From: a virus
Length of the DNA: 64,000 nucleotides
Reading direction: 5' to 3' (one strand)
Virus record (IMG/VR): IMGVR_UViG_3300045988_107814
Location: 1-64,000 of that record
The translations under genes were made by a program, and so were the position numbers. Shown here in pieces: positions 5,024 to 59,404 of this stretch. The notes below the pieces were generated by a model. The model did no database searches. It was not told where the DNA came from and worked only from the letters and a program-made list of their open reading frames with translations. Numbering within the stretch: the first letter of the stretch is position 1; each line of letters opens with the position of its first letter.

Positions 5024-5035
5024 TATAATAAAGTT
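5024..5035 (-). promoter_or_regulatory. AACT-N6-TA promoter-like motif
   Basis: Minus strand reads AACTTTATTATA; 24 nt upstream of ATG 5000 and just after a terminator. Confidence 0.4.
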
Positions 5036-5055
5036 CTATCAAGACAAAAAAGAAA

Positions 5056-5077
5056 GGCGTACTCATATGAGTACACC
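5056..5077 (-). terminator. intrinsic terminator
   Basis: GGCGTACTCA-TA-TGAGTACACC palindrome, with a T-run on the minus strand (5044..5055). Confidence 0.65.
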
Positions 5078-5083
5078 AGACTT

Positions 5084-5863
5084 TTACTTCCTATATTTAA
5101 TATCCATCAGTATTGAGAATAACTCACGGTTAAATAATTGATTGCAAGATATATCCAAGCAATCTTTATAACTTTCATCAATAAATCGAACACCGTATTG
5201 CCCAATTCTAAACATTGATTGTGAATTGAATTCTCTGTAATAATCTATATCTAGTTCTTTATTATCATACTTCTGGATGAATGATATTAATTCTTGAATT
5301 GCACTATCGATATTACTTGTAACTATTAGTTTTAAGATATAAGCTATAAATGACAAGTAAGCCGAATGGTAGCTTTTAAGATTATCGTCAGTTATACCTT
5401 TAATATCTATAACACTATCGTCTGTATTATCAAGTGCGTTTAAGCCATAATATATTTCTATATTACGACAATTTATATAAATGTCATATCTATTTCTTAA
5501 AGTGAAATTGATAAGACCGAATTTAGTTTGGTTAAGCTTTCGTAAAACATAGAATGCATCTTTCTTAATAGATAATACATCGTCTTCTGTAAGACTGTTG
5601 TATTCTATTAACATTTTACGAGAGTTTTCAAAGCCTATCTTTAGAGCATCTGATATTTTTTTATTTTTCTGCATATACCCAATAGCAACTTCTCTTTGAT
5701 ATTTAGGCATCTGACAAAACATATCATATGTCTCTTGAGTTATCATACCACTTTCCAATAGTATAGATACATTGGCTTTGGAGATATCATATTCATATAT
5801 CTCATTTATAAGATAGCTTACTTTCTTCGTATATAAAGATCTTTTATATAAATTGTTTTCCAT
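5084..5863 (-). CDS. hypothetical protein
   Basis: 259-aa ORF with an AAGGAAG SD-like sequence and a terminator hairpin downstream. No confident motif. Confidence 0.7.
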   Translation of the reverse strand: MENNLYKRSLYTKKVSYLINEIYEYDISKANVSILLESGMITQETYDMFCQMPKYQREVAIGYMQKNKKISDALKIGFENSRKMLIEYNSLTEDDVLSIKKDAFYVLRKLNQTKFGLINFTLRNRYDIYINCRNIEIYYGLNALDNTDDSVIDIKGITDDNLKSYHSAYLSFIAYILKLIVTSNIDSAIQELISFIQKYDNKELDIDYYREFNSQSMFRIGQYGVRFIDESYKDCLDISCNQLFNRELFSILMDIKYRK

Positions 5864-5887
5864 GACCTACACTTCCTTATCTTTATA

Positions 5888-6388
5888 TTATTCATAAGAT
5901 GGAAGATTTCTAGTCCCAAAGAAATTCATATACGTTTCTAGGTTAGAATCTAACTTTTGAATCCCTTCTATAGAGAAATTACCTGATTTGATATTTTGAA
6001 TATCGTCAATTGTTTTGACAATACTACTAGAATATCCATAGTTATCCACAATGAATTTGATCAAAGCTTCTATCATGTTAATAGATACTTCGTTATCCCA
6101 TTTACAGAAGATATATACATCATAACCATTGTAAGGATATCTTAATAAATCAATCAATTCTCTAAATGCCGATGAATTTGTTGTGAGATAGTTAATATAC
6201 CATTGATCAAATGCTTGTTCATTAACAAATACAGAATTATTAGTATTATAAACAGCACCAAAGTATGGGTTAAGATAATTAAGGCTTTGTACATTTTCTA
6301 CCAACTCATTAAAGTTAAACACAACAAAGTTAGTTCCTACTTTATCTTCTACAGACTGTAACAAAGTAGGATTACCAAATACAATCAT
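5888..6388 (-). CDS. hypothetical protein (distant paralogue of 6401..6970)
   Basis: 166-aa ORF with a GGGAGTG SD. It shares the ...D(V/Y)YIF...AL(I/L)..(I/L)V(D/E)N(Y/F)G... pattern with its neighbour. Confidence 0.7.
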   Translation of the reverse strand: MIVFGNPTLLQSVEDKVGTNFVVFNFNELVENVQSLNYLNPYFGAVYNTNNSVFVNEQAFDQWYINYLTTNSSAFRELIDLLRYPYNGYDVYIFCKWDNEVSINMIEALIKFIVDNYGYSSSIVKTIDDIQNIKSGNFSIEGIQKLDSNLETYMNFFGTRNLPSYE

Positions 6389-6400
6389 ATTATCACTCCC

Positions 6401-6970
6401 TTAGAAAGATATAAATAATGAATCTGGTTTGTTTGAAATCTTATACTGTCTGATAAGATTATTTATCTTCGGAAGATTCCAACCATCTACAGATCTAGCA
6501 CAAACTAATTTTGGGTCTTGAATAAAATCAGAAGCCTCATAGAATACAAGACCAAAATTTTCAACTAGATAATCCAACAAAGCCGGTACAAGATAGTTAA
6601 AGATATACGGATCTTCACTATCAAAGTAAAAGATATAATCAAAGTTTCTTTCAACTAGACCAGCCAATAATACTACCAGATATTCTTGTACTTGTGGATC
6701 ATTAGCTAACTTCTGATGATATAGGAATTTGAAGGTAGGATAATCACCATCAATTAATGCTATCATCGATTTAGAATCTGGCAATAGAATAGAACCGACA
6801 ATATAGTTACTACCACCATGACTATCCATATCGTTTATAACAACGATTTTAGTTTTGTTAAACTCTTGAATTCCCATTACAGTACCAATTGATTTTCTAC
6901 ATTGTTTTCTAACCTCAACAAGATTAACAAGATCTTGATTGGTTAAAGCAATAGAAATATTTCCAACCAT
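6401..6970 (-). CDS. hypothetical protein (distant paralogue of 5888..6388)
   Basis: 189-aa ORF with an AGGAGGAAAC SD. Confidence 0.7.
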   Translation of the reverse strand: MVGNISIALTNQDLVNLVEVRKQCRKSIGTVMGIQEFNKTKIVVINDMDSHGGSNYIVGSILLPDSKSMIALIDGDYPTFKFLYHQKLANDPQVQEYLVVLLAGLVERNFDYIFYFDSEDPYIFNYLVPALLDYLVENFGLVFYEASDFIQDPKLVCARSVDGWNLPKINNLIRQYKISNKPDSLFISF

Positions 6971-7005
6971 TTGTGTTTCCTCCTATTAATATTATAAGTA
7001 AGTTA

Positions 7006-7027
7006 AGGTAGCATTAATATGCTACCT
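7006..7027 (-). terminator. stem-loop after gene 7045..9357
   Basis: AGGTAGCAT-TAAT-ATGCTACCT; weak U-tract. Confidence 0.45.
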
Positions 7028-9377: not shown

Positions 9378-11060
9378 TTAGAATGTGTCTGAAGCTAATA
9401 ATTCTTCATCTGACATATTTTCAAAATCTCTGTTATCTGGTGGTGATACAGGCACGTCAAATTCTTCGTTAGAAATAACTTGACCTGTATCATTATCTAC
9501 AACAACGTGTCCCATTGTTCTTTGAATAGGTTGAATATTTCCGTTAGCATCTACATTTGGTTGAGTCATAGCTCCTTCTGACAATTCTTTCGGAATGAAT
9601 AGATTTTCCGTAGCCAATTGTGGAGTTACTTCTTTAGTATACATAAACTGATTCTCTGGTTTCTTATAATCATCCAGAGTCAACTCATCTATAGCGGTCT
9701 TAGCAAACGTAGGATGATAATGAGCGTTCATTGCCATTTGACAACCAAGATTTCCACTATGAACTTTATCCAAGAATCTCTGTCTCTTGATTTCATATGC
9801 TTGCTGTAATTTCTGTCTAACCAGAGGATCATTATCCATTTCTTCTGGCGTTGAAATCAAAGCTTTATAATGAAGATCTCTATCAAAGTCATAAGACAAA
9901 CTAAAGAATTTTGAACTTGTAGAATATGTGAAACAATCATCGCAACAGTTTGCAAGAATACTATTGAATTTGTCTCTAGAGAACGATGCTGATCTTAATG
10001 CTCGTTCAATCTTTTTAGTTTCTTTATTCCAATCAATTCTACTATCTTCAATCATAGCATAACGTTTCCAAACAGGAATACCTTCTGCTTCCCATTGGTT
10101 CCACTGATTCACTCTATTCAAATAACCCTGTCTAAATACTCTTGAAAATGCTTCTACCTTTCTTTGATGGAGCTGAACTTGCATTCTTTCAGTTTCCATC
10201 TCATATTGTCTCTGTCTATCCTCCATCTGTGTATGTGTTACATAAGAATGACCATTATTATCCTTTCTGTGATTTACTTCCTTAACCACATCACCTGTCT
10301 TGCAATCGATAATCTTGAAAGACATAGCTCTTTCAAAACGAACACCATTTACATCATACATATCATATATGATATTATTACCATCTCCGTTTTGATTTTT
10401 CAAATTATCTAATCTTTCTTCTTCTTGCTTCTTTAATGCTTCCTCCTGTTCTTTTACAATTTGATCTGCTGGTTTAAACTTTAATGATTCAAGATAGTCA
10501 AATTCTTCTTGAGTTACTGTTTTAAACTGCATATAAAATCTTGTCATACAATACTGAGTATCTGCTGCAATTTTTCTATCAGCTTCAAGTTCATTAAAGC
10601 AATCTACCATATGCTCTGCACAGGTAAAATTATATGGATTGATTCCATATAATCTCATACCTGGTGTATAAGCTTTAAGCCTTTCATCATCTGGACTCAT
10701 TCCATACGGATTATATCCTCCAACAGTAATATTATTGGACGGATTTCCAAGTTCGAATAGATTTGTCCTTCCACTTCTACCAGGCATTCCCTCAAATAAG
10801 TTTCCTTCCCAAGGTGGACTTATTGAGATTTGTTCTTGCTGATTATTAGGTTGAGCTTCATAGTTTACTACTATTCCGCTATTGTCGGAATCAGCACCGA
10901 CTGTTAGAAATTCCTCATACTCAGGATTCTGAGAAATTAAATTTTCAAGCTCTTCATTACTCATACTATTGAGTTGCTGGTCAATTTGTTGAGCCTGTAT
11001 ACGAGCCATATTAGCTGCTCGCATCAAGTTTTCTGTACGTCTTTCTTTTGACAGTTCCAA
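9378..11060 (-). CDS. hypothetical protein
   Basis: Long ORF. Start uncertain: TTG at 11060 lies 10 nt after AAGGAG; the alternative is ATG at 11024. Confidence 0.65.
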   Translation of the reverse strand: MELSKERRTENLMRAANMARIQAQQIDQQLNSMSNEELENLISQNPEYEEFLTVGADSDNSGIVVNYEAQPNNQQEQISISPPWEGNLFEGMPGRSGRTNLFELGNPSNNITVGGYNPYGMSPDDERLKAYTPGMRLYGINPYNFTCAEHMVDCFNELEADRKIAADTQYCMTRFYMQFKTVTQEEFDYLESLKFKPADQIVKEQEEALKKQEEERLDNLKNQNGDGNNIIYDMYDVNGVRFERAMSFKIIDCKTGDVVKEVNHRKDNNGHSYVTHTQMEDRQRQYEMETERMQVQLHQRKVEAFSRVFRQGYLNRVNQWNQWEAEGIPVWKRYAMIEDSRIDWNKETKKIERALRSASFSRDKFNSILANCCDDCFTYSTSSKFFSLSYDFDRDLHYKALISTPEEMDNDPLVRQKLQQAYEIKRQRFLDKVHSGNLGCQMAMNAHYHPTFAKTAIDELTLDDYKKPENQFMYTKEVTPQLATENLFIPKELSEGAMTQPNVDANGNIQPIQRTMGHVVVDNDTGQVISNEEFDVPVSPPDNRDFENMSDEELLASDTF

Positions 11061-11139
11061 AACTATAATTCTCCTTTCAATTTTAGATTGACTTAAGATG
11101 ACAATAGTCATCAAATATCACATAAATAATATATGATTC

Positions 11140-11151
11140 AACTTATTATTA
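11140..11151 (+). promoter_or_regulatory. AACT-N6-TA promoter-like motif
   Basis: AACTTATTATTA; extended CAACTTATTAWTAAA shared with the terL upstream region. Confidence 0.4.
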
Positions 11152-11185
11152 AATTATTGTACAGTAAGGAGTGATTATTTACAAA

Positions 11186-13229: not shown

Positions 13230-13241
13230 TATTATAAAGTT
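13230..13241 (-). promoter_or_regulatory. AACT-N6-TA promoter-like motif
   Basis: Minus strand reads AACTTTATAATA, between the terminator at 13245..13270 and ATG 13202. Confidence 0.4.
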
Positions 13242-15305: not shown

Positions 15306-15345
15306 AACAGTCCCTCCTTTATTATAAGAAAGTTAAAGTACATAT

Positions 15346-15399
15346 AAATTGTAAAACTTTATATTCTTAGCTATATATAATTATAGTGAATAGGAGATA
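15346..15399 (+). repeat. 54-bp promoter-containing repeat, copy 1
   Basis: AAATTGTAAAACTTTATATTCTTAGCTATATATAATTATAGTGAATAGGAGATA; about 48/54 identical to copy 2 at 18078..18131. Confidence 0.85.
15349..15377 (+). promoter_or_regulatory. sigma-A-like promoter (TTGTAA-17-TATATA) for cassette 1
   Basis: -35 TTGTAA at 15349..15354, a 17-nt spacer, and -10 TATATA at 15372..15377 (TATAAT also present 4 nt downstream). Confidence 0.5.
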
Positions 15400-18052: not shown

Positions 18053-18064
18053 TAATATAATGTT
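18053..18064 (-). promoter_or_regulatory. AACA-N6-TA promoter-like motif
   Basis: Minus strand reads AACATTATATTA; 29 nt upstream of ATG 18024. Confidence 0.45.
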
Positions 18065-18077
18065 TTTCTATTTAGAT

Positions 18078-20610: not shown

Positions 20611-20639
20611 TTAGTTTCCTCCTTAATTATATTAATTAT

Positions 20640-21422
20640 TTAATTGTTTTCGTGTTTGGTTTTTATTACATATCTGAGTGTAGCATAGTCAGAATCAGAT
20701 TTTCTATAAGTGTCTATAATAGCAGTCTTAGAAAATCCACTAAACCACAAATAATGAGACAGTTCTACATCTGGATATGGCTTATCATCAAATGTAGTAT
20801 TGAATTTGTAGTTTAATAATACTACTCTCTTTTCATTGAATTTATTTTTAAATTTGTATACATCATTTTTATTTTTGAAAATAAATTCTGTATACTCATC
20901 TAAATTAATATCAGATGGATCTTCCATAACAATCACGTTTACTTTAGAATGATATTTTCTTATTACCTTTTTCTCTTCTTCACTAGTACATAAGATATTT
21001 ACATGTACATTGTTCATATTAGAGAATACAGATATAAGGAAAAATATTCCAGTAATAGCGAGATACTTATCCTCTTTTAAAAGATCAGAGTATCTCTTTA
21101 ACATGATTTCTTTATAGATATTGTCTGCTAGTTTTTTATCCTTAATACATACAGTAAGAGGATTAGGATCTTCTCTATTAATAAGAAGGTGTTTAACTTC
21201 TTTTGAAGTCATATACATAACAGATTGATCTATAAATTCTGGATTATTATATTCTGCTTGTATCATTCTTAAAATAGAAAAATCCAAATCTATAACAGCG
21301 TTAAACATAATAAGATAATTATGATATCCAGAAGCCGCATTCTTTTCGTCTGATGAAGAAGACTCTACTTCTTTCTTAGTTCCATCTGGTTGTATTTCTT
21401 CAACCTTAATACTTTCAATCAT
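20640..21422 (-). CDS. hypothetical protein
   Basis: 260-aa ORF with start overlapping the upstream stop. The weak AVIDLDFS motif is discussed under rejected items. Confidence 0.65.
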   Translation of the reverse strand: MIESIKVEEIQPDGTKKEVESSSSDEKNAASGYHNYLIMFNAVIDLDFSILRMIQAEYNNPEFIDQSVMYMTSKEVKHLLINREDPNPLTVCIKDKKLADNIYKEIMLKRYSDLLKEDKYLAITGIFFLISVFSNMNNVHVNILCTSEEEKKVIRKYHSKVNVIVMEDPSDINLDEYTEFIFKNKNDVYKFKNKFNEKRVVLLNYKFNTTFDDKPYPDVELSHYLWFSGFSKTAIIDTYRKSDSDYATLRYVIKTKHENN

Positions 21423-22836: not shown

Positions 22837-22848
22837 TATTAAATTGTT
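22837..22848 (-). promoter_or_regulatory. AACA-N6-TA promoter-like motif
   Basis: Minus strand reads AACAATTTAATA(AAAT), identical to the core at 52586..52597. Confidence 0.5.
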
Positions 22849-22893: not shown

Positions 22894-22905
22894 AACTTAT
22901 TAATA
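22894..22905 (+). promoter_or_regulatory. AACT-N6-TA promoter-like motif upstream of terL
   Basis: AACTTATTAATA; 27 nt upstream of ATG 22932. Confidence 0.4.
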
Positions 22906-26733: not shown

Positions 26734-26745
26734 TATTGAAATGTT
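26734..26745 (-). promoter_or_regulatory. AACA-N6-TA promoter-like motif
   Basis: Minus strand reads AACATTTCAATA(AAT), identical to the cores at 47975 and 58554. Confidence 0.55.
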
Positions 26746-29299: not shown

Positions 29300-29311
29300 T
29301 AATAAATTGTT
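29300..29311 (-). promoter_or_regulatory. AACA-N6-TA promoter-like motif
   Basis: Minus strand reads AACAATTTATTA, downstream of the terminator at 29339..29360 and 29 nt before ATG 29271. Confidence 0.45.
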
Positions 29312-30135: not shown

Positions 30136-30161
30136 TGAGAGTGAGATTACTCCCACTCTCA
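30136..30161 (-). terminator. stem-loop after nrdD
   Basis: TGAGAGTGAG-(6 nt)-CCCACTCTCA, imperfect (G-U on the minus strand). Confidence 0.55.
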
Positions 30162-30189
30162 CTTAAATAATATATAAATTTATAATTAT

Positions 30190-32926: not shown

Positions 32927-32938
32927 TATTTATAAGTT
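32927..32938 (-). promoter_or_regulatory. AACT-N6-TA promoter-like motif upstream of nrdD
   Basis: Minus strand reads AACTTATAAATA. Confidence 0.4.
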
Positions 32939-35689: not shown

Positions 35690-35734
35690 CTTTATGTGTG
35701 TATATTTGCTTATTAACTTGTTCAGCTATATGTT

Positions 35735-37434: not shown

Positions 37435-37446
37435 TATATTAATGTT
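37435..37446 (-). promoter_or_regulatory. AACA-N6-TA promoter-like motif
   Basis: Minus strand reads AACATTAATATA; 20 nt upstream of ATG 37415. Confidence 0.45.
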
Positions 37447-41950: not shown

Positions 41951-41962
41951 TATAATATTGTT
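41951..41962 (-). promoter_or_regulatory. AACA-N6-TA promoter-like motif upstream of gp25-like gene
   Basis: Minus strand reads AACAATATTATA. Confidence 0.45.
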
Positions 41963-42980: not shown

Positions 42981-43107
42981 TTTAAATGACCTCCTGAAAA
43001 TTAATTTTATTTTGATATGTACTATTTATGTCCATATCATATAAATAATATATGTATAAATTAGTTTTTACAGTATTAAAAACTTAACTATAAATACATC
43101 CATCATA

Positions 43108-43919: not shown

Positions 43920-43986
43920 GATTGTATATTATACTTGTGTATAAAAAGAAAAGTTTATATAATATTTTTACAGGAGGCATGTACAA

Positions 43987-45618
43987 ATGGATATATTTGA
44001 ATATTGTCATAGTGAAATCTATTGGTGTGAAGTTGATAAATGGATACCATTAATAGGAGAAAATATTTTTACCAATGTGAAGAATGCAATTATTCTTCCT
44101 GTATCGTCATTTTTCGGTATGACGAAATCTAATGTATTAGATACGTTTTTCTTATTACCGAAGAGATGCTATAATTCAGATGAAATAAGAAATCATATCT
44201 GTAAATATCTAAACTATTTCGAAAAATTTTATGATCATGAGCATGAACTTTTGTTCTATATGTATAAGATCAAAGTATCTATTGATATGGGTGTGTATGA
44301 TAATGCTGTTGATAATGGTGTTATTATTGATGGCATAGATAATGAGAATACACCACCTAAAATTAAAGCATTCTTATATGATATCAAAACTTATATCTTG
44401 TCCGAATCAATCTACAATAAAGTATGGAGAATGGTTGAGGATAACTATAACCTTGAATTGAATTATAAGAATAAAGCTAACGAAGCACTTCAATATTGTG
44501 ATCGACATGGTAAGTATTTTATGGAGATTAGTATCTTCCAGAATATGCTAATTCCATTGTTGATGCATTTTATGTACAAAGATGATAAGTTAAAGAATGC
44601 GACTGAAATTATGAACGGACTTATCTTCAATGTATACAACTGGTTATTCGACGTTTATAGTAATGAAGCTATAATGGTTAAACGTGGATTAAGACCAGCA
44701 GATATGTTTCAGAAACTATATGAAACTGCAATCACCACAATGAACGCTCATTATAAAACTAATAGAACATTGTGGGATATGTCTAGTATTCGTGGCTATT
44801 GCCCAAATATTAATGCACATGATGCAATTAATACAGTAATAATGCAGGTAATGCCAAAATACACCTTTGAGGGAAACGTTATTACATACAATATAACTTC
44901 TATCAGAAACAATATCAAATATAATATTTCCGATATAAGCTTTGAGTATGATTTCGTTTCTCTAAGTTCCTCAAAACGAGATGGTGAAGATAACACATCT
45001 CAATTTGATAAATTTGAAGCTCATCTACAAAAGACAGATGAGGGCTTGGCTCTACAGAATGATTTCAGAGCTAGAAAAACAATTGAAGATATTTTACAAG
45101 TTAACGGTGATATTCCTCAGAGTGAAATAGATTTTTATAGAAAAGAACTCATTAAGAATGGTCAACCGTTAATCAATAGATTCCAACAGAATCTTGTTGA
45201 TAATGTATTTTATAAATATTTTGGAGATACTGTTTCTACTAACAGTATTAATGGTGACGATTATATTAAGTTGATGATTATTGCCAAAAAACTATTACTA
45301 AGACAAGGAATGATTCTATTACCATATATAGTCGCTAGCAAGGTAGTAAAAATCTCTACTAGAACTTCTCTTTGTAAGAAAGAACTTATGAAGATGGAGC
45401 AGTCTGAGCACTATAATACACTCATGAAAAAATATAATGGTAATAAAAAGGTCATGAATATATTATTTTCGCTAATCGCAACCACGTTATCTAGTAACTT
45501 CAAGATCATTGATTATGATGAAAAGAATAATGTACCAACAGAACTCAATGGTATTGAAGTGCAAATGGAGAATGATATTATAATTGACGAAATGTTAAGA
45601 TTCGTCATTATGATATAA
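43987..45618 (+). CDS. hypothetical protein
   Basis: 543-aa ORF with an AGGAGG SD and a terminator downstream. Confidence 0.7.
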   Translation: MDIFEYCHSEIYWCEVDKWIPLIGENIFTNVKNAIILPVSSFFGMTKSNVLDTFFLLPKRCYNSDEIRNHICKYLNYFEKFYDHEHELLFYMYKIKVSIDMGVYDNAVDNGVIIDGIDNENTPPKIKAFLYDIKTYILSESIYNKVWRMVEDNYNLELNYKNKANEALQYCDRHGKYFMEISIFQNMLIPLLMHFMYKDDKLKNATEIMNGLIFNVYNWLFDVYSNEAIMVKRGLRPADMFQKLYETAITTMNAHYKTNRTLWDMSSIRGYCPNINAHDAINTVIMQVMPKYTFEGNVITYNITSIRNNIKYNISDISFEYDFVSLSSSKRDGEDNTSQFDKFEAHLQKTDEGLALQNDFRARKTIEDILQVNGDIPQSEIDFYRKELIKNGQPLINRFQQNLVDNVFYKYFGDTVSTNSINGDDYIKLMIIAKKLLLRQGMILLPYIVASKVVKISTRTSLCKKELMKMEQSEHYNTLMKKYNGNKKVMNILFSLIATTLSSNFKIIDYDEKNNVPTELNGIEVQMENDIIIDEMLRFVIMI

Positions 45619-47914: not shown

Positions 47915-47920
47915 TAATTT

Positions 47921-47943: not shown

Positions 47944-47974
47944 ATTTATTTTTTGCTTTAGTACCTCTAAGCTC

Positions 47975-47986
47975 AACATTTCAATA
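47975..47986 (+). promoter_or_regulatory. AACA-N6-TA promoter-like motif
   Basis: AACATTTCAATA(AT), after the terminator at 47921..47943 and 20 nt before ATG 48006. Confidence 0.55.
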
Positions 47987-48005: not shown

Positions 48006-49196
48006 ATGGGTAAGTTTATTAATAAATCATATACTAATACTATTGATTCTCTAACCAGTGGTATGATTCAAAAAGTAAAATCTGCCAATTATGTATTTAA
48101 CAACAAACCTCCTGTTTTATGTGACTGGTATAACATTGATAAAGATGCTACCACATTAGATGAAGGAAGTGGATTAGAATATTCAAGTGTCGGTAAGTCT
48201 AGTCCTATAAGATATAAATGTATTAAAGATGCTGTATTCTATTCTCAAGGTATTCAAATTGAAATTAATCTTGAATATGATGAGGATGGTTTGTCCACAG
48301 CACCTCCATCTATAAGTGGTATAGTTTTACCTAATACTTGGATTCCATATCCAGGTGATCATTTTATAATAAAACAGGCTGGCAAAGATTACTTATATAG
48401 AGTAAATAATGTAAGTTATGATACTATAGATAATGATAATAACGTATATAGTTTTGAGGCTGCTGTAGATCAGACTGGTAAAAATAATATAGAAAACCAA
48501 GTTACTGAATACTATAGAATGATAATCAATAATGTGGGCACTTCTTTTAATTCTATTATCAAAGAATCTATATATGATTGTATAGATACATTAGATGGAA
48601 TATTAGTTCAGTTAAAGAATAACTATATTGCTTTATTCTATAATGATGCTGTTCAAACATTTACTTATAATGGTATGTACGGTAATCTTTATGATCCTTA
48701 TATGATTGAGTTTATGACGAGAAATGAAATCCTAAATGGTTCTGATGAGTATATCTATTTACATCACGAAGTACCAGTACCAAGAACATTTTCTATAGAT
48801 TATAATAGTACTTTATTTAGAGCATTAGAAACTAGGTCTATTGAAAATTTCTCTTCTAAAATCTGTACCGCTGATGTTATAGATAATCAATACTCTTTAT
48901 TCAACACAGTAGTTGAGAATTACTTTATGATCAAATATAACGATAACGGAATATACAAGTTTAGTCCAATTAATGCTGAACTAATTGCTAAGGTAAAATC
49001 TAACCAAGAGTTTGATCAATATAGTCCAAATTCATATATGAATATAATTATAAAATATATGAACAAGTCTAAAATAGATTCTTCTATAATTCCATTCTTA
49101 GAAGCAATCGATTTCAAATCTACTGTAGATTTATTCTATTGTATTCCTATGATTATTTTTTGCTTAGAGAATAGTATCAAAAATTTGATGAGTTAA
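48006..49196 (+). CDS. hypothetical protein, likely virion/late protein
   Basis: 396-aa ORF with an AAAGGAGG SD and AACATTTCAATA 20 nt upstream. Confidence 0.7.
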   Translation: MGKFINKSYTNTIDSLTSGMIQKVKSANYVFNNKPPVLCDWYNIDKDATTLDEGSGLEYSSVGKSSPIRYKCIKDAVFYSQGIQIEINLEYDEDGLSTAPPSISGIVLPNTWIPYPGDHFIIKQAGKDYLYRVNNVSYDTIDNDNNVYSFEAAVDQTGKNNIENQVTEYYRMIINNVGTSFNSIIKESIYDCIDTLDGILVQLKNNYIALFYNDAVQTFTYNGMYGNLYDPYMIEFMTRNEILNGSDEYIYLHHEVPVPRTFSIDYNSTLFRALETRSIENFSSKICTADVIDNQYSLFNTVVENYFMIKYNDNGIYKFSPINAELIAKVKSNQEFDQYSPNSYMNIIIKYMNKSKIDSSIIPFLEAIDFKSTVDLFYCIPMIIFCLENSIKNLMS

Positions 49197-49206
49197 CATA
49201 CCAATA
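49195..49206 (+). promoter_or_regulatory. AACA-N6-TA promoter-like motif
   Basis: AACATACCAATA overlaps the stop of the upstream gene. Confidence 0.35.
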
Positions 49207-50757: not shown

Positions 50758-52560
50758 TTAGAATATTGGATTTACAAATTTAACAGAATCATCAGGTTGA
50801 ACAGTTAATTCATATAAACAGAGTATATTTTCTTTAGATACATCTCTTGTAGAATAACCGTTCATACCAAGTATTTGAATCTTTGCATCGGCTTGTTTCT
50901 CACATTCTTTATTTGCCTCTATTGTATACACAGGTTTTACAATTGCTGTATCACCATCATAATCCATTCCCATCGCTCCAATTAATCCATTACAAATAGA
51001 CAATGTATCTTCAAACACTGGAGATGTATTTGAATTGATATCCCTGTCAGTTATAATAGGGTACCATTTATATAGCTTATTGTTATCTTCAAAATCAGAT
51101 TGTATTACCATAGGTTGTGTTTTAACAGTAGATTTGATTCTTACTTTTGTAGGATACTGGTTTAAGAACGAGTCAATTGGGAAACGAGTAATTAGAACCA
51201 TCTTATCGGATGTAACATCACAAGCAGCCATATAGAACAAGTCACACCAAGTAAGAGGTCTATTGATCTTTAATTCTGAAGAATATTCTTTTTTCTTTTC
51301 ATCAAAATCTTTAGAATTATTTAACTTATATCCCATAAAGTACATATAAAAGCTTAACTCATTGATTTTAATATTTTTACCAGTAACTGTATCTTTTAAT
51401 TCACCATTCTTAGCACGTCTAGCAAATTCTTCTTTATCTACTGGTAATTCAATAGGAATAAATCTGTTTGAATAACCATGGATGAAACGTTCAATCTGAG
51501 CATCCAATTCTACATCAGAAAAAGCTATCTGATAATCTACAAGAGGAACCATTACTACTTCTTTATCATTAATAGAAATAGGATATTCTAGTTTACCTGC
51601 AAATCTATTCTCAAAGAATCGTCTTAACCAGAACATAATAAATGGTTTAAAACAACACAATGCCGCAGCCAATGGTAATGCAGCATGATTCATATCTACC
51701 ATTAAATCATCAATATCTTCACCAGATACATCTGGTGCAGACATAACTAATCTTGCAGAATAGTCTACTGTCTTATACATTACACCACGTTTAATAAGAC
51801 CCATTTTACCAGGTAAGTTTGCCGGTGTTTCTTGTCCATTAATCGTTGTACCATTACCAAACCAATCAAATATCTGTAATAAAATATTCTGAACTCTAGC
51901 TTTTGTTACATCACTTAAAGTTAGGCCAAATTCAGCAGTTTCTTTTAAAGACTTAGTAGCCATAATCAGACTACTATATAACTTATTAATTTCACCAACA
52001 CCGATACCATTATCTTTAGTATCTACGTCTCTATAATATGGTGGAATTACTATATACTTTGTTACCCATAATTGATTCTTGCACTTTTCAATAAAATCAA
52101 TTCTTCTGTTTCTAGAAGATGATTCATTCTTTTTAAACTTCAATTTACTAAAGTTTCTTTTAAGCCAATCAATACCAGTATTACCATCATCAGATTTAAC
52201 TAATTCACCACCATCATTAATAATAAAATATTCTGTACCGTTAACTACACTTTCAATTTTATTATTTAATTTACATAGTGTCTTATATACTAATGGATGA
52301 AAAAAAGAACTACCAAGATCTATATAAGCATATATACCAGATCTCTCAGCTTTAGTAATACCAAAAATTTCATTAGAAAGCAATCCATCTTCTGTAGGTG
52401 TAGGACCATTAAAAAATACAGGATTAGTAATTTCTTTCAATTGATTTACTCTAATAAATTTATCTACATCTAATAAAGAAGTTTTTAGGTGTTCTGTACT
52501 AGCTTCTGAAAAATAATCAGTTTCATTTTTAACAATATTTACAGCTTCATCTATAAGCAT
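50758..52560 (-). CDS. multisubunit RNA polymerase beta-prime-like subunit, N-terminal half (split beta-prime)
   Basis: GLLSNEIFG matches GGLF.E.IFGP near the N-terminus. The catalytic Mg loop GAMGMDYDGDTAIV (beta-prime NADFDGD) lies about 70 aa from the C-terminus. That placement is as expected for the N-terminal fragment of the split beta-prime of phiKZ/AR9-type phage RNAPs. Confidence 0.7.
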   Translation of the reverse strand: MLIDEAVNIVKNETDYFSEASTEHLKTSLLDVDKFIRVNQLKEITNPVFFNGPTPTEDGLLSNEIFGITKAERSGIYAYIDLGSSFFHPLVYKTLCKLNNKIESVVNGTEYFIINDGGELVKSDDGNTGIDWLKRNFSKLKFKKNESSSRNRRIDFIEKCKNQLWVTKYIVIPPYYRDVDTKDNGIGVGEINKLYSSLIMATKSLKETAEFGLTLSDVTKARVQNILLQIFDWFGNGTTINGQETPANLPGKMGLIKRGVMYKTVDYSARLVMSAPDVSGEDIDDLMVDMNHAALPLAAALCCFKPFIMFWLRRFFENRFAGKLEYPISINDKEVVMVPLVDYQIAFSDVELDAQIERFIHGYSNRFIPIELPVDKEEFARRAKNGELKDTVTGKNIKINELSFYMYFMGYKLNNSKDFDEKKKEYSSELKINRPLTWCDLFYMAACDVTSDKMVLITRFPIDSFLNQYPTKVRIKSTVKTQPMVIQSDFEDNNKLYKWYPIITDRDINSNTSPVFEDTLSICNGLIGAMGMDYDGDTAIVKPVYTIEANKECEKQADAKIQILGMNGYSTRDVSKENILCLYELTVQPDDSVKFVNPIF

Positions 52561-52585: not shown

Positions 52586-52597
52586 TATTAAATTGTT
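52586..52597 (-). promoter_or_regulatory. AACA-N6-TA promoter-like motif upstream of RNAP beta-prime gene
   Basis: Minus strand reads AACAATTTAATA(AT). Confidence 0.5.
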
Positions 52598-52650: not shown

Positions 52651-52662
52651 AACATTTAAATA
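52651..52662 (+). promoter_or_regulatory. AACA-N6-TA promoter-like motif
   Basis: AACATTTAAATA(AAAT), divergent from the motif at 52586..52597. Confidence 0.5.
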
Positions 52663-57476: not shown

Positions 57477-57497
57477 TATATAAGGAGGTATTATATT

Positions 57498-58508
57498 ATG
57501 AATGATAAATTCCCTAGTGTATTTATCGATAGTGATAAACCAGAGTTAGTTTGTGGTATTAAACAAGAAAAAGAATGCCCTTGTCAACCACCACAACCTA
57601 AAGAATATCATAGAGAAGAACCTGTAGTAAATAGACCTTATTCTGATATGCCAGTTCCAGGTCCATTTGTTCCAGATTATCAAGTTCAAGAAATTGGTGA
57701 AGCTTGCCCAAATCCAGTTCCTAATACTTATTTAGCTCCTGGTCATTGTCATCATAAGCCAGATCATGATTGCCACTGTCATCCAGATAGAAATCCTCAT
57801 CCTATGGAATGGAATTGTGAATGTTGTGGTCCCTATGTGACAAAGCATGAATTAAATAGAATTCTTGCTCATATTGCAGAAGCTGATATTTTTAAAGATC
57901 TATCTGAAAATGGTACTACAGTTTCTGTTGGTGGTATTAAGAAGGGTACAAAATTTAATAAGCTTACTTTATCTAAGTTAGTAGAATTAATGTTATACCC
58001 AGAAATTAATATTGATGATGAAGAATATGCTTGTGAAACTCCTAGTGGTAGAACAGTTTTAAATTCTACAGTAAAACACGAAATGGGAGATCTTAAAGAA
58101 GGAGATTCTTTAAAAGGTATGACAATCTCTCAAATTCTAGAAGCTATGTTATGCGGAAAGAATTTATGGGGTACTTATCTATGGAAGTCTGATATTGTAG
58201 ATGTAGAAGCAAGTACGACTACATTAGATGCTGAAGTATTATTCCCTGAACTTGTAAAAGATTACGATTGGAGACATACTTATGATCTCTTAGTAATTTG
58301 CAAGAAAGATGATAAATCTACAGAAGCTAATTATAAATATAACGAAATGATTGCTAATATTTATAATAAAGATCAGAAGACAAATGTTTCTATTGAAGGT
58401 GTACCGTCTGATCTTAAATGGAGCTATAATCCAGAAAGCAAGAAGATTACACTTCATACAGATACAGAAATTACAACTGCTATTTGTGTAGTATTAATTA
58501 GAAGATAA
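57498..58508 (+). CDS. Cys/His/Pro-rich protein (paralogous motif with 53138..53710)
   Basis: ECPCQPPQPKEYH...GHCHHKPDHDCHCHPDRNPHPMEWNCECCGPY, then a globular C-terminal part. Confidence 0.7.
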   Translation: MNDKFPSVFIDSDKPELVCGIKQEKECPCQPPQPKEYHREEPVVNRPYSDMPVPGPFVPDYQVQEIGEACPNPVPNTYLAPGHCHHKPDHDCHCHPDRNPHPMEWNCECCGPYVTKHELNRILAHIAEADIFKDLSENGTTVSVGGIKKGTKFNKLTLSKLVELMLYPEINIDDEEYACETPSGRTVLNSTVKHEMGDLKEGDSLKGMTISQILEAMLCGKNLWGTYLWKSDIVDVEASTTTLDAEVLFPELVKDYDWRHTYDLLVICKKDDKSTEANYKYNEMIANIYNKDQKTNVSIEGVPSDLKWSYNPESKKITLHTDTEITTAICVVLIRR

Positions 58509-58513
58509 AATCT

Positions 58514-58537
58514 AGGAAGGGAGTAAAATCCCTTCCT
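58514..58537 (+). terminator. intrinsic terminator
   Basis: AGGAAGGGA-(6 nt)-TCCCTTCCT followed by TTATTTTT. Confidence 0.8.
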
Positions 58538-58553
58538 TTATTTTTACTGATTT

Positions 58554-58565
58554 AACATTTCAATA
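58554..58565 (+). promoter_or_regulatory. AACA-N6-TA promoter-like motif
   Basis: AACATTTCAATA(AT), after the terminator at 58514..58537. Confidence 0.55.
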
Positions 58566-58592
58566 ATTATAAATGTAAGGAGATGTATAGAG

Positions 58593-59315
58593 ATGAATAC
58601 ACCTAGTTTTATTAAAGTAAAAGATAATTCATATTTATTTGCAAATGAAGGTACGATGAAATTCTATATTCCAGAAAAATATTTCTCCAACAAGTTGGCT
58701 CAATTTGAAGGCGAATGTATTTCTCTATTTGGAATGTTTTCTTATGCTATTTTTGATAAGAATGACAAAGCTATTGGTAAATTACGAACCTTTAAATTTC
58801 CTATTTCATTTCTAACTAAGCCTGATGAAATAGAAATTGCAAAAGGTATTGTTCTTACTAGTAACAACAAACCATCTGATTATAGAATTCTTAAATATCA
58901 TAAAGACGGTGTAGTTGTTGTAAACTATAATATTGCTGAAGATGCTGAAAATATTCAACGTTGGTACTCTGCTATTGATACAGGTGCCTTGCCGAATAAC
59001 TTACCATATGATGAATTACAAAACTATTTTCTTAGAAATGTACAGTTGACTGGAAATAAGTATAGTGTTTCATTACAACTTATTGGAGTTGTAATTAGTG
59101 AACTTTGTCGTTCTAGAAAAGATATTAATTCACCTTTTAGAATGTCTGGATCTGATGATATGAATAATTATCAATGGATGTCCATTAAAGATATTCCAAA
59201 GGGTACTTCTCCATTCACTGCATTACAATCAGAAGAATGGGATAAAGCGGTTATTTCGTCTATCACATTGGATACTAACAAAGATAGTCCGTTAGAGAAA
59301 ATTATGATGGATTGA
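58593..59315 (+). CDS. hypothetical protein, likely virion/late protein
   Basis: 240-aa ORF; AACATTTCAATA lies 28 nt upstream of the ATG. Confidence 0.7.
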   Translation: MNTPSFIKVKDNSYLFANEGTMKFYIPEKYFSNKLAQFEGECISLFGMFSYAIFDKNDKAIGKLRTFKFPISFLTKPDEIEIAKGIVLTSNNKPSDYRILKYHKDGVVVVNYNIAEDAENIQRWYSAIDTGALPNNLPYDELQNYFLRNVQLTGNKYSVSLQLIGVVISELCRSRKDINSPFRMSGSDDMNNYQWMSIKDIPKGTSPFTALQSEEWDKAVISSITLDTNKDSPLEKIMMD

Positions 59316-59392
59316 TGTAGCTAAGTTTTAACATAATGATAAAAGGTCATGTAGCCCAGCTATAACCTTATAATCAAATAATATATAAGATT

Positions 59393-59404
59393 AACACACA
59401 CATT
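59393..59404 (+). promoter_or_regulatory. AACA-N6-TT variant promoter-like motif
   Basis: AACACACACATT; 35 nt upstream of ATG 59439. Confidence 0.3.

What the first reader, a model, noticed from the sequence alone, without database searches (positions are those of the whole stretch)
5024..59404. AAC(A/T)-N6-TA motif in front of about 18 transcription units: signature of an AR9/PBS1-type phage-encoded RNA polymerase promoter
Seen directly: 12-40 nt upstream of start codons, usually right after a terminator, I find AACA-N6-TA at 18064(-), 22848(-), 26745(-), 29311(-), 37446(-), 41962(-), 43108(+), 47975(+), 49195(+), 52597(-), 52651(+) and 58554(+). There is a TT variant at 59393(+). AACT-N6-TA occurs at 5035(-), 11140(+), 13241(-), 22894(+) and 32938(-). 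Extended cores are identical at unrelated loci: AACATTTCAATA occurs three times and AACAATTTAATA twice. By a rough estimate, chance expectation for AACA-N6-TA in a 60-nt AT-rich window is about 0.05. From memory of the AR9 literature, the non-virion RNAP recognises template-strand 3'-UUGU-5' (non-template AACA at -11 to -8) and starts at the A/T following a T six nt later. That is the same geometry. The window also encodes a split beta-prime subunit. The AACT subclass precedes replication/nucleotide genes, terL and the giant fibre gene. The AACA subclass precedes mostly structural genes and the RNAP gene, which hints at two temporal classes. If the AR9 analogy is real, virion DNA may contain deoxyuridine instead of thymidine, which the sequence cannot show.
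Basis: partly seen in the sequence, partly recalled or inferred. Interest (0 to 1): 0.7.

Follow-up and report, generated by a model that had tools for sequence, protein, structure and literature searches.

The report
AR9-type phage RNA polymerase promoters
The short DNA signal AAC(A/T)-N6-TA in front of about 22 genes is real; it is most likely the start signal read by this uncultured giant phage's own RNA polymerase, as in Bacillus phage AR9, with an extra AACTT version that AR9 lacks.

Summary
In 52 oriented upstream regions, AACA-N6-TA occurs 12 times against 2.5 expected (0/2000 shuffles) and once antisense; N5 and N7 spacings give 0. AACT-N6-TA occurs 8 times against 1.9. A de novo EM search recovers tAAC[A/T]TTTTAATAA as the top motif. 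Both motifs are retained at orthologous positions in related metagenomic jumbo-phage contigs whose flanks have diverged. Both are depleted inside genes on both strands (z -4.0 and -2.8 against synonymous-codon shuffles).

The papers give AR9's late consensus as AACA-(6N)-T-A/G(+1). Window gene 43987-45618 is a distant homolog of AR9 gp226, the promoter-specificity subunit of the non-virion RNAP (hhalign 99.8%; Foldseek 7S01_A, E 9e-13). AR9 orthologs of five genes that carry the motif here (four AACA sites and terL) have mapped AACA-N6-TA start sites. An AR9-like early motif, TATATTAT-N6-G, precedes the gp226-like gene.

Corrections:
- The beta-prime pieces in the window belong to the virion RNAP.
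- Sites 43108 and 59393 are probably not promoters.
- Sites 7004, 15334, 20648, 43081 and 59330 were missed.

The AACTT class is not enriched in AR9, in the 50 kb of LPJP1 tested, or in phage K. It is a new variant; its temporal role is only inferred. dU in the DNA stays untested.

The parts
18053..18064 (-). AACA-class promoter AACATTATATTA, upstream of 16555-18024 (homolog of AR9 g233, an endonuclease)
   Evidence: Kept in 8 of 8 orthologous upstream regions. AR9 g233 has a mapped late start site behind AACAATATTTTA.
20637..20648 (-). AACA-class promoter AACAATTAAATA, upstream of the GroEL-like gene 18886-20610. It overlaps the stop codon of the upstream gene.
   Evidence: Kept in 8 of 8 relatives. 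GroEL assignment.
22837..22848 (-). AACA-class promoter AACAATTTAATA, upstream of 22000-22800
   Evidence: Kept in 8 of 8 relatives.
26734..26745 (-). AACA-class promoter AACATTTCAATA, upstream of 26325-26711
   Evidence: Kept in 7 of 8 relatives.
29300..29311 (-). AACA-class promoter AACAATTTATTA, directly after a terminator and upstream of 28444-29271
   Evidence: Kept in 8 of 8 relatives.
35711..35722 (-). Candidate AACA-class promoter AACAAGTTAATA, upstream of 35233-35682. Conservation could not be tested because no orthologs were found.
37435..37446 (-). AACA-class promoter AACATTAATATA, after a terminator and upstream of 36636-37415 (homolog of AR9 g112, a virion protein)
   Evidence: Kept in all relatives with an ortholog (6 of 6; 7 of 7). 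Homology.
41951..41962 (-). AACA-class promoter AACAATATTATA, after a terminator and upstream of 41509-41928 (homolog of AR9 g232, baseplate wedge) and 39807-41495 (homolog of g231)
   Evidence: AR9 g232 has a mapped start site behind AACATTTCAATA.
47975..47986 (+). AACA-class promoter AACATTTCAATA, after the terminator at 47920-47944 and upstream of 48006-49196 (homolog of AR9 g165, a virion protein)
49195..49206 (+). AACA-class promoter AACATACCAATA, overlapping the stop codon of 48006-49196 and upstream of 49233-49727
   Evidence: Kept in 6 of 6 relatives.
52586..52597 (-). AACA-class promoter AACAATTTAATA, upstream of the virion RNAP beta'-N gene 50758-52560. Three relatives (L007-L009) carry AACTTTATAATA at this position instead.
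   Evidence: AR9 g145 has a mapped start site behind AACAAATTATTA.
52651..52662 (+). AACA-class promoter AACATTTAAATA, upstream of 52688-53125
   Evidence: The orthologs found (L006, L052; both loci come from one contig) carry AACATAACTATA.
58554..58565 (+). AACA-class promoter AACATTTCAATA, after a terminator and upstream of 58593-59315 (homolog of AR9 g125, virion RNAP beta' C-terminal piece)
59330..59341 (+). AACA-class promoter AACATAATGATA, upstream of 59439-62678 (occupies the position of the AR9 tail sheath gene).
   Evidence: TTTTAACATAWTGATAAA is conserved in L049 and L052.
5024..5035 (-). AACT-class promoter AACTTTATTATA, after a terminator and upstream of the 1408-aa gene 774-5000
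   Evidence: Identical in 5 of 5 relatives, while the protein is only 34-41% identical.
6993..7004 (-). AACT-class promoter AACTTACTTATA, upstream of the operon 6401-6970 / 5888-6388 / 5084-5863 (the last is a homolog of AR9 g239).
   Evidence: Kept in 5 of 5 relatives. Homology.
11140..11151 (+). AACT-class promoter AACTTATTATTA, upstream of the exonuclease gene 11186-11875
   Evidence: Identical in 5 of 5 relatives.
13230..13241 (-). AACT-class promoter AACTTTATAATA, after a terminator and upstream of 11943-13202
   Evidence: Kept in every relative whose ortholog has an intact upstream region (scored 5 of 5).
15323..15334 (-). AACT-class promoter AACTTTCTTATA, upstream of the operon running from 14832-15305 to nrdG 13280-13804.
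   Evidence: Kept in 8 of 8 relatives.
22894..22905 (+). AACT-class promoter AACTTATTAATA, upstream of terL 22932-25256
   Evidence: Identical in 8 of 8 close relatives. The distant relatives L036 and L038 carry AACA-type motifs here.
32927..32938 (-). AACT-class promoter AACTTATAAATA, upstream of nrdD exon 1 (32201-32899)
   Evidence: Kept as AACTT in 5 of 6 relatives.
43081..43092 (+). AACT-class promoter AACTTAACTATA, upstream of 43131-43919 (homolog of AR9 g227).
   Evidence: Identical in 6 of 6 relatives. Homology.
43925..43939 (+). Early-type promoter TATATTAT-ACTTGT-G (virion RNAP type), upstream of the gp226-like gene
   Evidence: TTGTATATTAT-N6-G is conserved in 6 of 6 relatives. AR9 has an annotated early promoter at the same place, before g226.
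43038..43052 (-). Early-type promoter TATATTAT-TTATAT-G, upstream of 42048-42980 (MYG1-like exonuclease)
   Evidence: Conserved geometry in relatives.
11119..11133 (-). Early-type promoter TATATTAT-TTATGT-G, upstream of 9378-11060
   Evidence: Identical in 5 of 5 relatives.
30160..30174 (-). Early-type promoter TATATTAT-TTAAGT-G followed by a hairpin, upstream of 29396-30109
43987..45618 (+). Gene for a gp226-type protein (543 aa), the presumed promoter-specificity subunit of the non-virion RNAP that reads the AAC(A/T)-N6-TA sites
   Evidence: tblastn to BpSp gp281, E 3e-7. BpSp gp281 matches AR9 gp226 at E 4e-171. hhalign 99.8%, E 5.5e-28, over 445 columns. Foldseek 7S01_A, E 9.4e-13. Synteny with the g227-like gene and primase.
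50758..52560 (-). Virion RNAP beta' N-terminal subunit gene (homolog of AR9 g145), transcribed from the AACA promoter at 52597
58593..59315 (+). Homolog of AR9 g125. AR9 Table S4 labels g125 as virion RNAP beta' C-terminus; GenBank labels it 'virion protein'.

Best explanation
**What it is.** The window comes from an uncultured jumbo phage of about 215 kb and 30% G+C, distantly related to Bacillus phage AR9/PBS1. It appears to run the AR9-type programme with two phage RNA polymerases.

**Early genes.** The virion RNAP is injected with the DNA and starts at TATATTAT-N6-G promoters. One of these precedes the gene for the gp226-like specificity subunit (43987-45618).

**Later genes.** The gp226-like protein joins the non-virion RNAP core, which is encoded outside this window. 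The resulting holoenzyme starts at AAC(A/T)-N6-T-A(+1) promoters. By analogy with AR9, it reads the template strand 3'-TTG(T/A)-5' at -11 to -8 and begins at the A of the conserved TAA. This gives leaders mostly 18-39 nt long (59330 gives about 98 nt) that run into a strong AGGAGG ribosome-binding site. Most such promoters sit directly after an intrinsic terminator, so each marks a separate transcription unit.

**Two versions.**
- AACA(A/T)T..AATAA precedes virion-protein genes, the virion RNAP genes and GroEL. This is the AR9-like late class.
- AACTT...(A/T)ATAA precedes nrdD, the nrdG operon, an exonuclease, terL and other genes. This class is not enriched in AR9 or in the 50 kb of LPJP1 tested.

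**Shown and inferred.** Shown here: the motif statistics, its conservation, its avoidance inside genes, the homology of the specificity subunit, and the orthology to AR9 genes with mapped start sites. Inferred: that transcription starts at the TA, that the same holoenzyme reads both versions, and that the AACTT class differs in timing or strength.
For: **Motif statistics.**
1. Enrichment is specific for orientation and spacing: AACA 12 against 2.5 and AACT 8 against 1.9, with 1 antisense each and 0 at N5 and N7. A de novo EM run recovers the motif.
2. Controls behave as expected:
   - AR9 58 against 8.7
   - LPJP1 9 against 1.55
   - phage K 2 against 2.3

**Conservation.**
3. Over 21 ortholog sets, flanking positions vary in 11-19 sets. 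Positions -8, -7, +1 and +2 vary in only 3, 2, 1 and 2 sets. True sites are retained in nearly all orthologs, against 1 of 5 and 1 of 11 for chance hits.

**Avoidance inside genes.**
4. Against synonymous-codon shuffles, AACA-N6-TA is found 34 times against 58.7 expected (z -3.97), and AACT-N6-TA 43 against 62.3 (z -2.77). Both strands are affected. N3 and N9 spacings and other cores are not depleted.

**Link to AR9.**
5. The gp226 homolog is supported by sequence, profile and fold, and synteny is kept, including the early promoter in front of it.
6. AR9 orthologs g232, g233, g145, g121, g239 and g125 have experimentally mapped start sites behind AACA-N6-T-A/G, with leaders of 22-51 nt. Transcripts of g145, g232, g233, g125, g228 and g227 are absent or near zero at 5 min, so these are late genes. 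g121 and g239 are already detectable at 5 min.
8. The early motif TATATTAT-N6-G occurs 4 times against 0.18 expected.
Against: - No transcript 5' ends are available for this phage.
- The non-virion RNAP core genes are not in the window.
- In AR9, substitutions at -8 abolish transcription. The AACT class therefore needs a different or broader specificity than the only enzyme tested so far.
- Residues that contact the promoter in AR9 gp226 (V206, Y210) are not conserved in this family. The protein-DNA contacts cannot simply be carried over.
- The related contigs are not phylogenetically independent.
Confidence: 0.85

Rival explanations
1. The AACTT sites are a separate promoter class. They would be read by a different form of the phage polymerase, for example the non-virion RNAP with another factor. 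That would make them a true middle class rather than a second version of one promoter read by the same holoenzyme.
For: - The identity of the base at -8 is conserved gene by gene: it varies in only 3 of 21 ortholog sets.
- AACT is followed by T in 49 of 55 unique sites. AACA is followed by A or T about equally.
- AACT genes are nucleotide-metabolism and DNA genes plus terL. AACA genes are virion genes.
- AR9's enzyme does not tolerate changes at -8.
- A small HTH protein (46615-46893) lies in the early gp226-primase operon.
Against: - Both classes share the same geometry, the same AAC, the same TAA start and the same leader lengths.
- One gene (virion RNAP beta'-N) carries AACA in one subclade and AACTT in another, and terL does the reverse in distant relatives.
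- No second gp226-like gene was found next to the first: the neighbouring 314-aa protein is unrelated.
- There are no expression data.
Confidence: 0.3
2. The motifs are -10-like boxes of host sigma-A/sigma-70 promoters in AT-rich DNA, and the host RNA polymerase transcribes these genes.
For: - The 3' half of many sites looks like TATAAT (for example AACTTACTTATAAT and AACTTTCTTATAAT).
- The ribosome-binding sites are typical of Firmicutes.
Against: - Sigma-70-like sites are not enriched: 125 against 138 expected.
- The sequence 17 nt upstream is a non-conserved terminator tail, not a -35 box.
- The invariant bases are AAC and the TAA, not a TATAAT hexamer.
- The host-RNAP-dependent phage K shows no enrichment.
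- The same motif is a proven phage-RNAP promoter in AR9, in front of orthologous genes.
Confidence: 0.04
3. The motif acts at the RNA level, as a processing site or translation element in the 5' leader, and is not a promoter.
For: It lies at a fixed short distance (about 17-38 nt) from start codons, on the sense strand only.
Against: - It is avoided inside genes on the antisense strand as well: 14 against 23.6 for AACA. This fits a signal read on DNA.
- It usually follows a terminator, so upstream transcripts should mostly end before reaching it.
- In AR9 the identical motif drives initiation in vitro, even from single-stranded DNA.
Confidence: 0.05
4. The pattern is a chance product of AT-rich intergenic sequence.
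For: Over the whole window the motif is rarer than in shuffles: 50 against 87.
Against: - 0 of 2000 shuffles reach the observed upstream count.
- Spacing and strand are strict.
- The sites are conserved at orthologous positions.
- The negative control is flat.
Confidence: 0.01

Closest known systems
Late promoters of Bacillus phage AR9/PBS1, read by the non-virion RNAP holoenzyme with gp226 (consensus AACA-(6N)-T-A/G(+1))
   Same: - Same AAC core, same 6-nt spacer, same T-A start.
- Same placement 20-50 nt before the start codons of virion genes.
- Even the same 12-mer: AACATTTCAATA precedes AR9 g232 and occurs at three window sites.
- A gp226 homolog is encoded with the same gene neighbourhood and the same early promoter in front.
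- Orthologous genes (g145, g232, g233, g125) carry the motif in both phages.
   Different: - The specificity subunit is about 18-22% identical and 80 residues longer.
- The DNA-contacting residues V206 and Y210 are replaced: T261 and M265 in the window, with the V206-equivalent position variable across the family.
- G at +1 is rare here, and +2 is almost always A.
- A second class, AACTT-N5-TA, is used for about 8 units. AR9 does not use it (6 against 7.6 expected), and its enzyme does not tolerate substitutions at -8.
- Avoidance inside genes is spacing-specific here. In AR9 the N3 spacing control is depleted as much as N6, so the effect there is not specific.
AR9 and phiR1-37 early promoters, read by the virion RNAP (AAATATATATTAT-(6N)-G(+1))
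   Same: - AT-rich conserved block TATATTAT, a 6-nt spacer, then G.
- Found before the gp226-like gene, as in AR9.
- Sometimes followed by a hairpin, as annotated in phiR1-37.
   Different: - The conserved block is shorter or shifted: (T/C)(T/A)(G/C)TATATTAT.
- Only 4 exact copies and 4 variants occur in this 64 kb.
phiKZ non-virion RNAP with gp68, and its late promoters (TATG)
   Same: The fifth subunit has a homologous fold (Foldseek 8QUE_B, E 3.6e-5), and the RNAP has the same split architecture.
   Different: The promoter consensus is entirely different. phiKZ reads T-containing double-stranded DNA and forms a phage nucleus.

Membership tests
AR9-type non-virion RNAP (gp226-dependent) late promoter | Non-template consensus AACA at -11 to -8, a 6-nt spacer, then T(-1) and A/G(+1) | tested here: met
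   13-14 AACA-N6-TA sites lie upstream of genes. Enrichment is 12 against 2.5, with 0 at N5 and N7. The 8 AACT sites do not meet this feature at -8.
AR9-type non-virion RNAP (gp226-dependent) late promoter | The genome encodes a gp226-type promoter-specificity subunit | tested here: met
   43987-45618: hhalign 99.8%, E 5.5e-28, over 445 columns against the AR9 gp226 family. Foldseek top hit 7S01_A, E 9.4e-13. Synteny is kept.
AR9-type non-virion RNAP (gp226-dependent) late promoter | The genome encodes the split non-virion beta and beta' core subunits (AR9 g270, g154, g105, g089) | not testable with these tools
   tblastn of all window proteins against the AR9 genome gave no hit to these four genes. 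The window is only about 30% of a roughly 215-kb genome, and the rest could not be fetched.
AR9-type non-virion RNAP (gp226-dependent) late promoter | The motif precedes late (virion) genes, and transcripts start at the A/G after the T | tested here: inconclusive
   The gene-class part is met. AACA sites precede homologs of AR9 virion and late genes (g112, g125, g145, g165, g232, g233, g228), and the AR9 orthologs have mapped start sites. Start sites in this phage cannot be mapped computationally.
AR9-type non-virion RNAP (gp226-dependent) late promoter | Strict need for deoxyuridine at template positions -11 and -10, enforced by gp226 V206 in the 2.1bis helix (conserved in all dU-phage homologs) | tested here: not met
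   Only the sequence proxy could be tested. V-I-W is invariant in AR9, BpSp, S6, phiR1-37 and LPJP1. The aligned position in the window family is T, I, L, Q, D, V or G, followed by L/I-W. The chemistry of the DNA itself is not testable here.
AR9-type non-virion RNAP (gp226-dependent) late promoter | Recognition of the template strand, including on single-stranded DNA | not testable with these tools
   This needs in vitro transcription (describes the AR9 assay).
AR9-type virion RNAP early promoter | A highly conserved AT-rich block centred near -10, 6 nt, then G(+1), placed upstream of early genes including the non-virion RNAP subunit genes | tested here: met
   TATATTAT-N6-G occurs 4 times in sense against 0.18 expected. 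It is conserved before the gp226-like gene in 6 of 6 relatives. AR9 has an annotated early promoter at the same place.
Bacterial sigma-70/sigma-A promoter | A -35 TTGACA-like hexamer 16-18 nt upstream of a -10 TATAAT-like hexamer | tested here: not met
   Sigma-70-like sites number 125 against 138 expected and do not coincide with the motif sites. The upstream sequence is not conserved.

The most novel reading that the evidence does not exclude
This large uncultured clade has evolved a second, discrete promoter class, AACTT-N5-TA (546 gp226-like proteins, on contigs of up to about 260 kb). The class would be read by the non-virion RNAP through an altered reading of -8 and -7. Combined with TATATTAT-N6-G (early) and AACA-N6-TA (late), it would give a three-tier programme without any extra sigma-like factor. 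The valine that excludes thymine in AR9 gp226 is not conserved here, and one family member has glycine at that position, as in the AR9 V206G mutant that accepts T. These phages may therefore use AR9-style template-strand promoter recognition on ordinary thymine DNA.
Probability: 0.3. Interest if true: 0.65.

Novelty: new variant of a known kind. Interest (0 to 1): 0.55.

Why it matters
AR9 is so far the only phage in which this unusual way of finding promoters has been worked out: a sigma-like subunit reads four template-strand bases and insists on uracil. The same DNA signal is kept here in a widespread, uncultured branch of jumbo phages, and the anaerobic ribonucleotide reductase genes suggest an anaerobic host. 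The specificity subunit of this branch shares only about 20% of its residues with gp226 and has lost the residues that contact the DNA in AR9.

That has three uses:
- It gives natural variants for asking which parts of gp226 really set the specificity.
- It gives a candidate second promoter class (AACTT) whose reading at -8 can be tested.
- It gives a simple computational rule for annotating transcription units and temporal classes in such metagenomic genomes.

It also makes the question of whether dU-DNA is obligatory for this mechanism directly testable.

Tried and rejected
- **Nucleotide search for relatives.** megablast of 10 kb against known phages found nothing.
- **Direct match to solved structures.** phmmer of the 543-aa protein against PDB sequences did not reach gp226. 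The link needed BpSp gp281 as a stepping stone, then profiles and a fold search.
- **Family annotation.** PHROGs and Pfam gave no function for most genes.
- **One scan for relatives.** The search for related loci with the 773-aa protein found no relatives.
- **Rfam at gathering thresholds** found nothing in the window.
- **A second specificity subunit.** I asked whether the 314-aa gene next to the gp226-like gene is a paralog. It is not.
- **dU from the sequence.**
  - The V206 proxy is not conserved and so is uninformative.
  - No homologs of AR9 Ugi, dCMP deaminase or deoxyribonucleotidase lie in the window.
  - The rest of the genome was out of reach.
- **Sites rejected as promoters.**
  - 43108(+): overlaps the ribosome-binding site, kept in 0 of 6 relatives.
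  - 59393(+): register not kept.
  - 13292(-): kept in 1 of 5 relatives.
  - 13879(-): kept in 1 of 11 relatives.
  - 15464(+): no orthologs; lies inside a leader.
- **AR9 as a control for avoidance inside genes.** AR9 shows mild AACA depletion that is not specific to the N6 spacing. That contrast is therefore weaker than the contrast in upstream enrichment.

Full report
**1. The observation**

All the coordinates hold. Each of the 12 AACA-N6-TA sites and the 5 AACT-N6-TA sites carries the stated sequence. So does AACACACACATT at 59393. AACATTTCAATA occurs three times and AACAATTTAATA twice.

Counted over the whole window, the motifs are rarer than in dinucleotide shuffles: 50 and 55 matches against about 87 expected. 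A naive global test would therefore have dismissed the finding. The signal lies in where the matches sit.

I built a simple gene model and took up to 70 nt upstream of each start codon, oriented with the gene. That gave 52 regions and 2529 nt. The counts in these regions are:

| Motif | Sense | Expected (2000 shuffles) | Shuffles reaching observed | Antisense |
|---|---|---|---|---|
| AACA-N6-TA | 12 | 2.48 | 0/2000 | 1 |
| AACA-N5-TA | 0 | 2.45 | n/a | 0 |
| AACA-N7-TA | 0 | 2.39 | n/a | 0 |
| AACT-N6-TA | 8 | 1.87 | 1/2000 | 1 |

Cores such as TACA, AATA, AAGA and ACAA are not enriched.

I also wrote a ZOOPS-EM motif search and ran it on upstream regions with the ribosome-binding site trimmed off. 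Its first motif is tAAC[a/T]TTTTAATAA, with 11.2 bits and sites in 26 of 38 regions. Its second motif is the T-tract of terminators.

The same enrichment pipeline behaves correctly on controls:

| Genome | AACA-N6-TA sense vs expected | AACT-N6-TA sense vs expected |
|---|---|---|
| AR9, whole genome (positive control) | 58 vs 8.7 | 6 vs 7.6 |
| Listeria jumbo phage LPJP1, 50 kb | 9 vs 1.55 | 2 vs 1.6 |
| Staphylococcus phage K, 50 kb, 31% GC (negative control) | 2 vs 2.3 | 3 vs 2.2 |

**2. What the phage is**

The window has 30% G+C and no nucleotide-level relative among sequenced phages.

*The beta' pieces.*
- Protein 50758-52560 is a beta'-N-like RNAP piece. Its best relatives are LPJP1 (34% identity), the Staphylococcus jumbo phages, BpSp and the AR9-like Goe21 (about 30%).
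- It aligns to AR9 g145, which is annotated as the virion RNAP beta' N-terminus.
- The Goe21 ortholog matches the solved non-virion beta'-N (7S00_d) only weakly. The window gene is therefore the virion enzyme's subunit.
- Protein 58593-59315 is a homolog of AR9 g125. AR9's Table S4 labels g125 as the beta' C-terminus.

*The specificity subunit.*
- Protein 43987-45618 (543 aa) hits BpSp gp281 and phiR1-37 g245.
- BpSp gp281 is the ortholog of AR9 gp226, matching PDB 7S01_A at E 4e-171.
- A 16-member profile of the window family aligns to a 5-member gp226 profile with 99.8% probability, E 5.5e-28, over 445 columns.
- An AlphaFold model (pLDDT 74.8) has AR9 gp226 as its best PDB match (E 9.4e-13), followed by phiKZ gp68 (E 3.6e-5).
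- The gene order is as in AR9: g227-like gene, early promoter, gp226-like gene, then primase.
- The family has 546 members at E <= 1e-3 in the metagenome protein set, many on contigs of 200-263 kb.

**3. Conservation**

I fetched loci from related IMG/VR contigs. Their gp226-like proteins are 60-69% identical to the window's, and their TerL proteins 80-92%. A distant group has 43% TerL identity.

At orthologous genes the motif is kept while the flanks change. I then compared 21 ortholog sets position by position:

| Positions | Sets (of 21) that show any variation |
|---|---|
| Flanks, -19 to -12 | 11-18 |
| -8 | 3 |
| -7 | 2 |
| Spacer interior, -6 to -2 | 8-12 |
| +1 | 1 |
| +2 | 2 |
| Flanks, +3 to +9 | 11-19 |

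AAC and the T at -1 were required by the search, so their constancy is not itself evidence. Retention is evidence, however. True sites are kept in nearly all orthologs, whereas chance hits are kept in 1 of 5 (13292-) and 1 of 11 (13879-).

- 43108(+) overlaps the ribosome-binding site and is absent from all six relatives.
- The 59393 TT variant is not kept in register. A canonical AACATAATGATA at 59330 is conserved instead.
- New conserved sites are 7004(-), 15334(-), 20648(-) and 43081(+).

**4. Avoidance inside genes**

I shuffled synonymous codons within each gene, which keeps the protein sequence and the codon usage.
- AACA-N6-TA is found 34 times inside genes against 58.7 expected (z -3.97, 0/400). 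The sense strand has 20 against 35.1 and the antisense strand 14 against 23.6.
- AACT-N6-TA is found 43 times against 62.3 expected (z -2.77, 1/400).
- The in-phase spacings N3 and N9, and other cores, are not depleted.

Selection against stray copies on both strands fits a signal read on DNA. It argues against an RNA-level element.

**5. The link to AR9 biology**

The papers give AR9's late consensus as AACA-(6N)-T-A/G(+1). It is read on the template strand by the gp226 holoenzyme. Positions -11 to -8 are each essential, and uracil is required at -11 and -10.

AR9's Table S3 lists mapped start sites behind such motifs for the orthologs of genes that carry the motif here:

| AR9 gene | Product | Motif | Leader (nt) |
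|---|---|---|---|
| g232 | baseplate wedge | AACATTTCAATA | 36 |
| g233 | endonuclease | AACAATATTTTA | 35 |
| g145 | virion RNAP beta'-N | AACAAATTATTA | 22 |
| g125 | virion RNAP beta'-C | AACATAATATTG | 31 |
| g121 | TerL | AACATTCTATTA | 27 |
| g239 | hypothetical protein | AACAATCGATTA | 51 |

AR9 transcript levels for g145, g232, g233, g228, g165 and g125 are near zero at 5 min and rise later. In the window, predicted leaders are 12-37 nt for the AACA class and 18-62 nt for the AACT class. The extreme values come from two hits rejected as promoters (43108 and 13292).

Terminator-like hairpins are enriched (16 against 5.3 expected) and sit directly upstream of several sites.

The AR9 early consensus is AAATATATATTAT-(6N)-G. 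It has a counterpart here in TATATTAT-N6-G.
- Oriented upstream regions hold 4 exact copies against 0.18 expected.
- They lie at 11133(-), 30174(-), 43052(-) and 43925(+).
- The copy at 43925(+) precedes the gp226-like gene and is conserved in all six relatives. AR9's annotated early promoter before g226 sits at the same place.

**6. The AACT class**

This is the part that goes beyond AR9. Eight sites share AACTT-N3-(A/T)ATAA: 5035-, 7004-, 11140+, 13241-, 15334-, 22894+, 32938- and 43081+.

- The class is enriched in the sense orientation in every close and intermediate subclade, and is present in two of the four distant loci (L037, L038). AAC[C/G] is not enriched anywhere.
- It is not enriched in AR9, in the 50 kb of LPJP1 tested, or in phage K.
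- AACT is followed by T in 49 of 55 unique sites. AACA is followed by A or T equally often.
- Class identity is stable for each gene. It switches for the virion RNAP beta'-N gene: AACAATTTAATA in the window's subclade and AACTTTATAATA in L007-L009. It also switches for terL: AACTTATTAATA in close relatives and AACA-type in the distant L036 and L038.
- The AACT genes are nrdD, the nrdG operon, an exonuclease, terL, homologs of g227 and g239, and two large unknown proteins. The AACA genes are virion proteins, both virion RNAP pieces, GroEL and the g233-like endonuclease.

A temporal difference (middle against late) or a difference in strength is plausible. It is not shown.

**7. Deoxyuridine**

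In AR9, V206 of the 2.1bis helix excludes thymine at -10. The V206G mutant accepts both U and T. Y210 stacks on the G at -9.

V-I-W is invariant in AR9, BpSp, S6, phiR1-37 and LPJP1. In the window family the tryptophan is invariant. The V206 position is T (in the window), I, L, Q, D, V or G, and Y210 is replaced mostly by M.

No homolog of AR9's Ugi, dCMP deaminase or deoxyribonucleotidase lies in the window. The window covers only about 30% of the genome.

**8. Rivals**

- Host sigma-70-type promoters are not supported. There is no enrichment (125 against 138 expected), no conserved -35, and the conserved bases are the wrong ones.
- An RNA-level element is unlikely, given the antisense avoidance and the upstream terminators.
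- Chance is excluded.
- The open question is whether one holoenzyme reads both classes. No gp226 paralog was found beside the gene.

**9. Verdict**

The finding is real and the AR9 analogy is well founded. The AACA class is a new member of a known promoter type, in a large uncultured clade. The AACTT class and the diverged recognition helix make the system a new variant of that type. The initiation points, the enzyme assignment for AACTT, the timing and the dU question all need experiments.

Noticed in passing
window 30190-32899 (-), gap 31837-32200: The anaerobic ribonucleotide reductase gene nrdD is split. 32201-32899 matches PHROG 487 positions 4-226, and 30190-31836 matches positions 260-713. 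The 364-nt gap between them gives a weak full-length Rfam group I intron hit on the same strand (31870-32216, 18.2 bits, E 0.032, below the gathering score). It is probably a group I intron.
   Followed up: partly
window 15344-15405 and 18076-18137 (+): A 62-nt direct repeat, 89% identical, holds an early-promoter-like TATATAAT-TATAGT-G. Each copy lies upstream of a small + strand ORF (15526-15963, 18254-18505) that ends in a terminator. At the second position, the close relative L014 has a terminator instead. These may be inserted early-gene cassettes.
   Followed up: partly
window, all coding regions: AACA-N6-TA and AACT-N6-TA are depleted inside genes on both strands relative to synonymous-codon shuffles (z -3.97 and -2.77). 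The in-phase spacings N3 and N9 are not depleted. This looks like selection against stray internal promoters.
   Followed up: yes
window 46615-46893 (+): A 92-aa HTH_3 (XRE-type) DNA-binding protein is encoded between the gp226-like gene and the primase gene, in what looks like an early operon. It could be a transcription regulator.
   Followed up: no
window 30129-30174 (-): The early-type promoter at 30174 is followed at once by a perfect hairpin (GAGAGTGGGAGTAATCTCACTCTC) ahead of the ribosome-binding site. The same promoter-then-stem-loop layout is annotated upstream of phiR1-37 g245.
   Followed up: no
window 59393-59410 (+); L049, L052: A CACACATTTT element in the roughly 98-nt leader of the 1079-aa gene (which occupies the AR9 tail-sheath position) is conserved in relatives. 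It is not in register as an AACA-N6-T promoter. Its function is unknown.
   Followed up: partly
window 38528-38560 (-); L004-L006 upstream of paralogous small genes: A 33-nt leader, CAGATGGTAAAGACATTAAAACATAGAATGGAG, runs into the ribosome-binding site. It recurs with few changes in front of several paralogous genes in related contigs, downstream of early-type promoters. It may be a regulatory element in the 5' UTR.
   Followed up: partly
window 42981-43130 and 11115-11185: Two compact divergent control regions each pack an early-type promoter on one strand and an AACTT promoter on the other, within about 60 nt. Both are conserved base for base in relatives.
   Followed up: partly
window 42048-42980 (-): The gene behind the early-type promoter at 43052 encodes a MYG1/UPF0160-family metal-dependent exonuclease-like protein (Pfam E 9.5e-21).
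   Followed up: no
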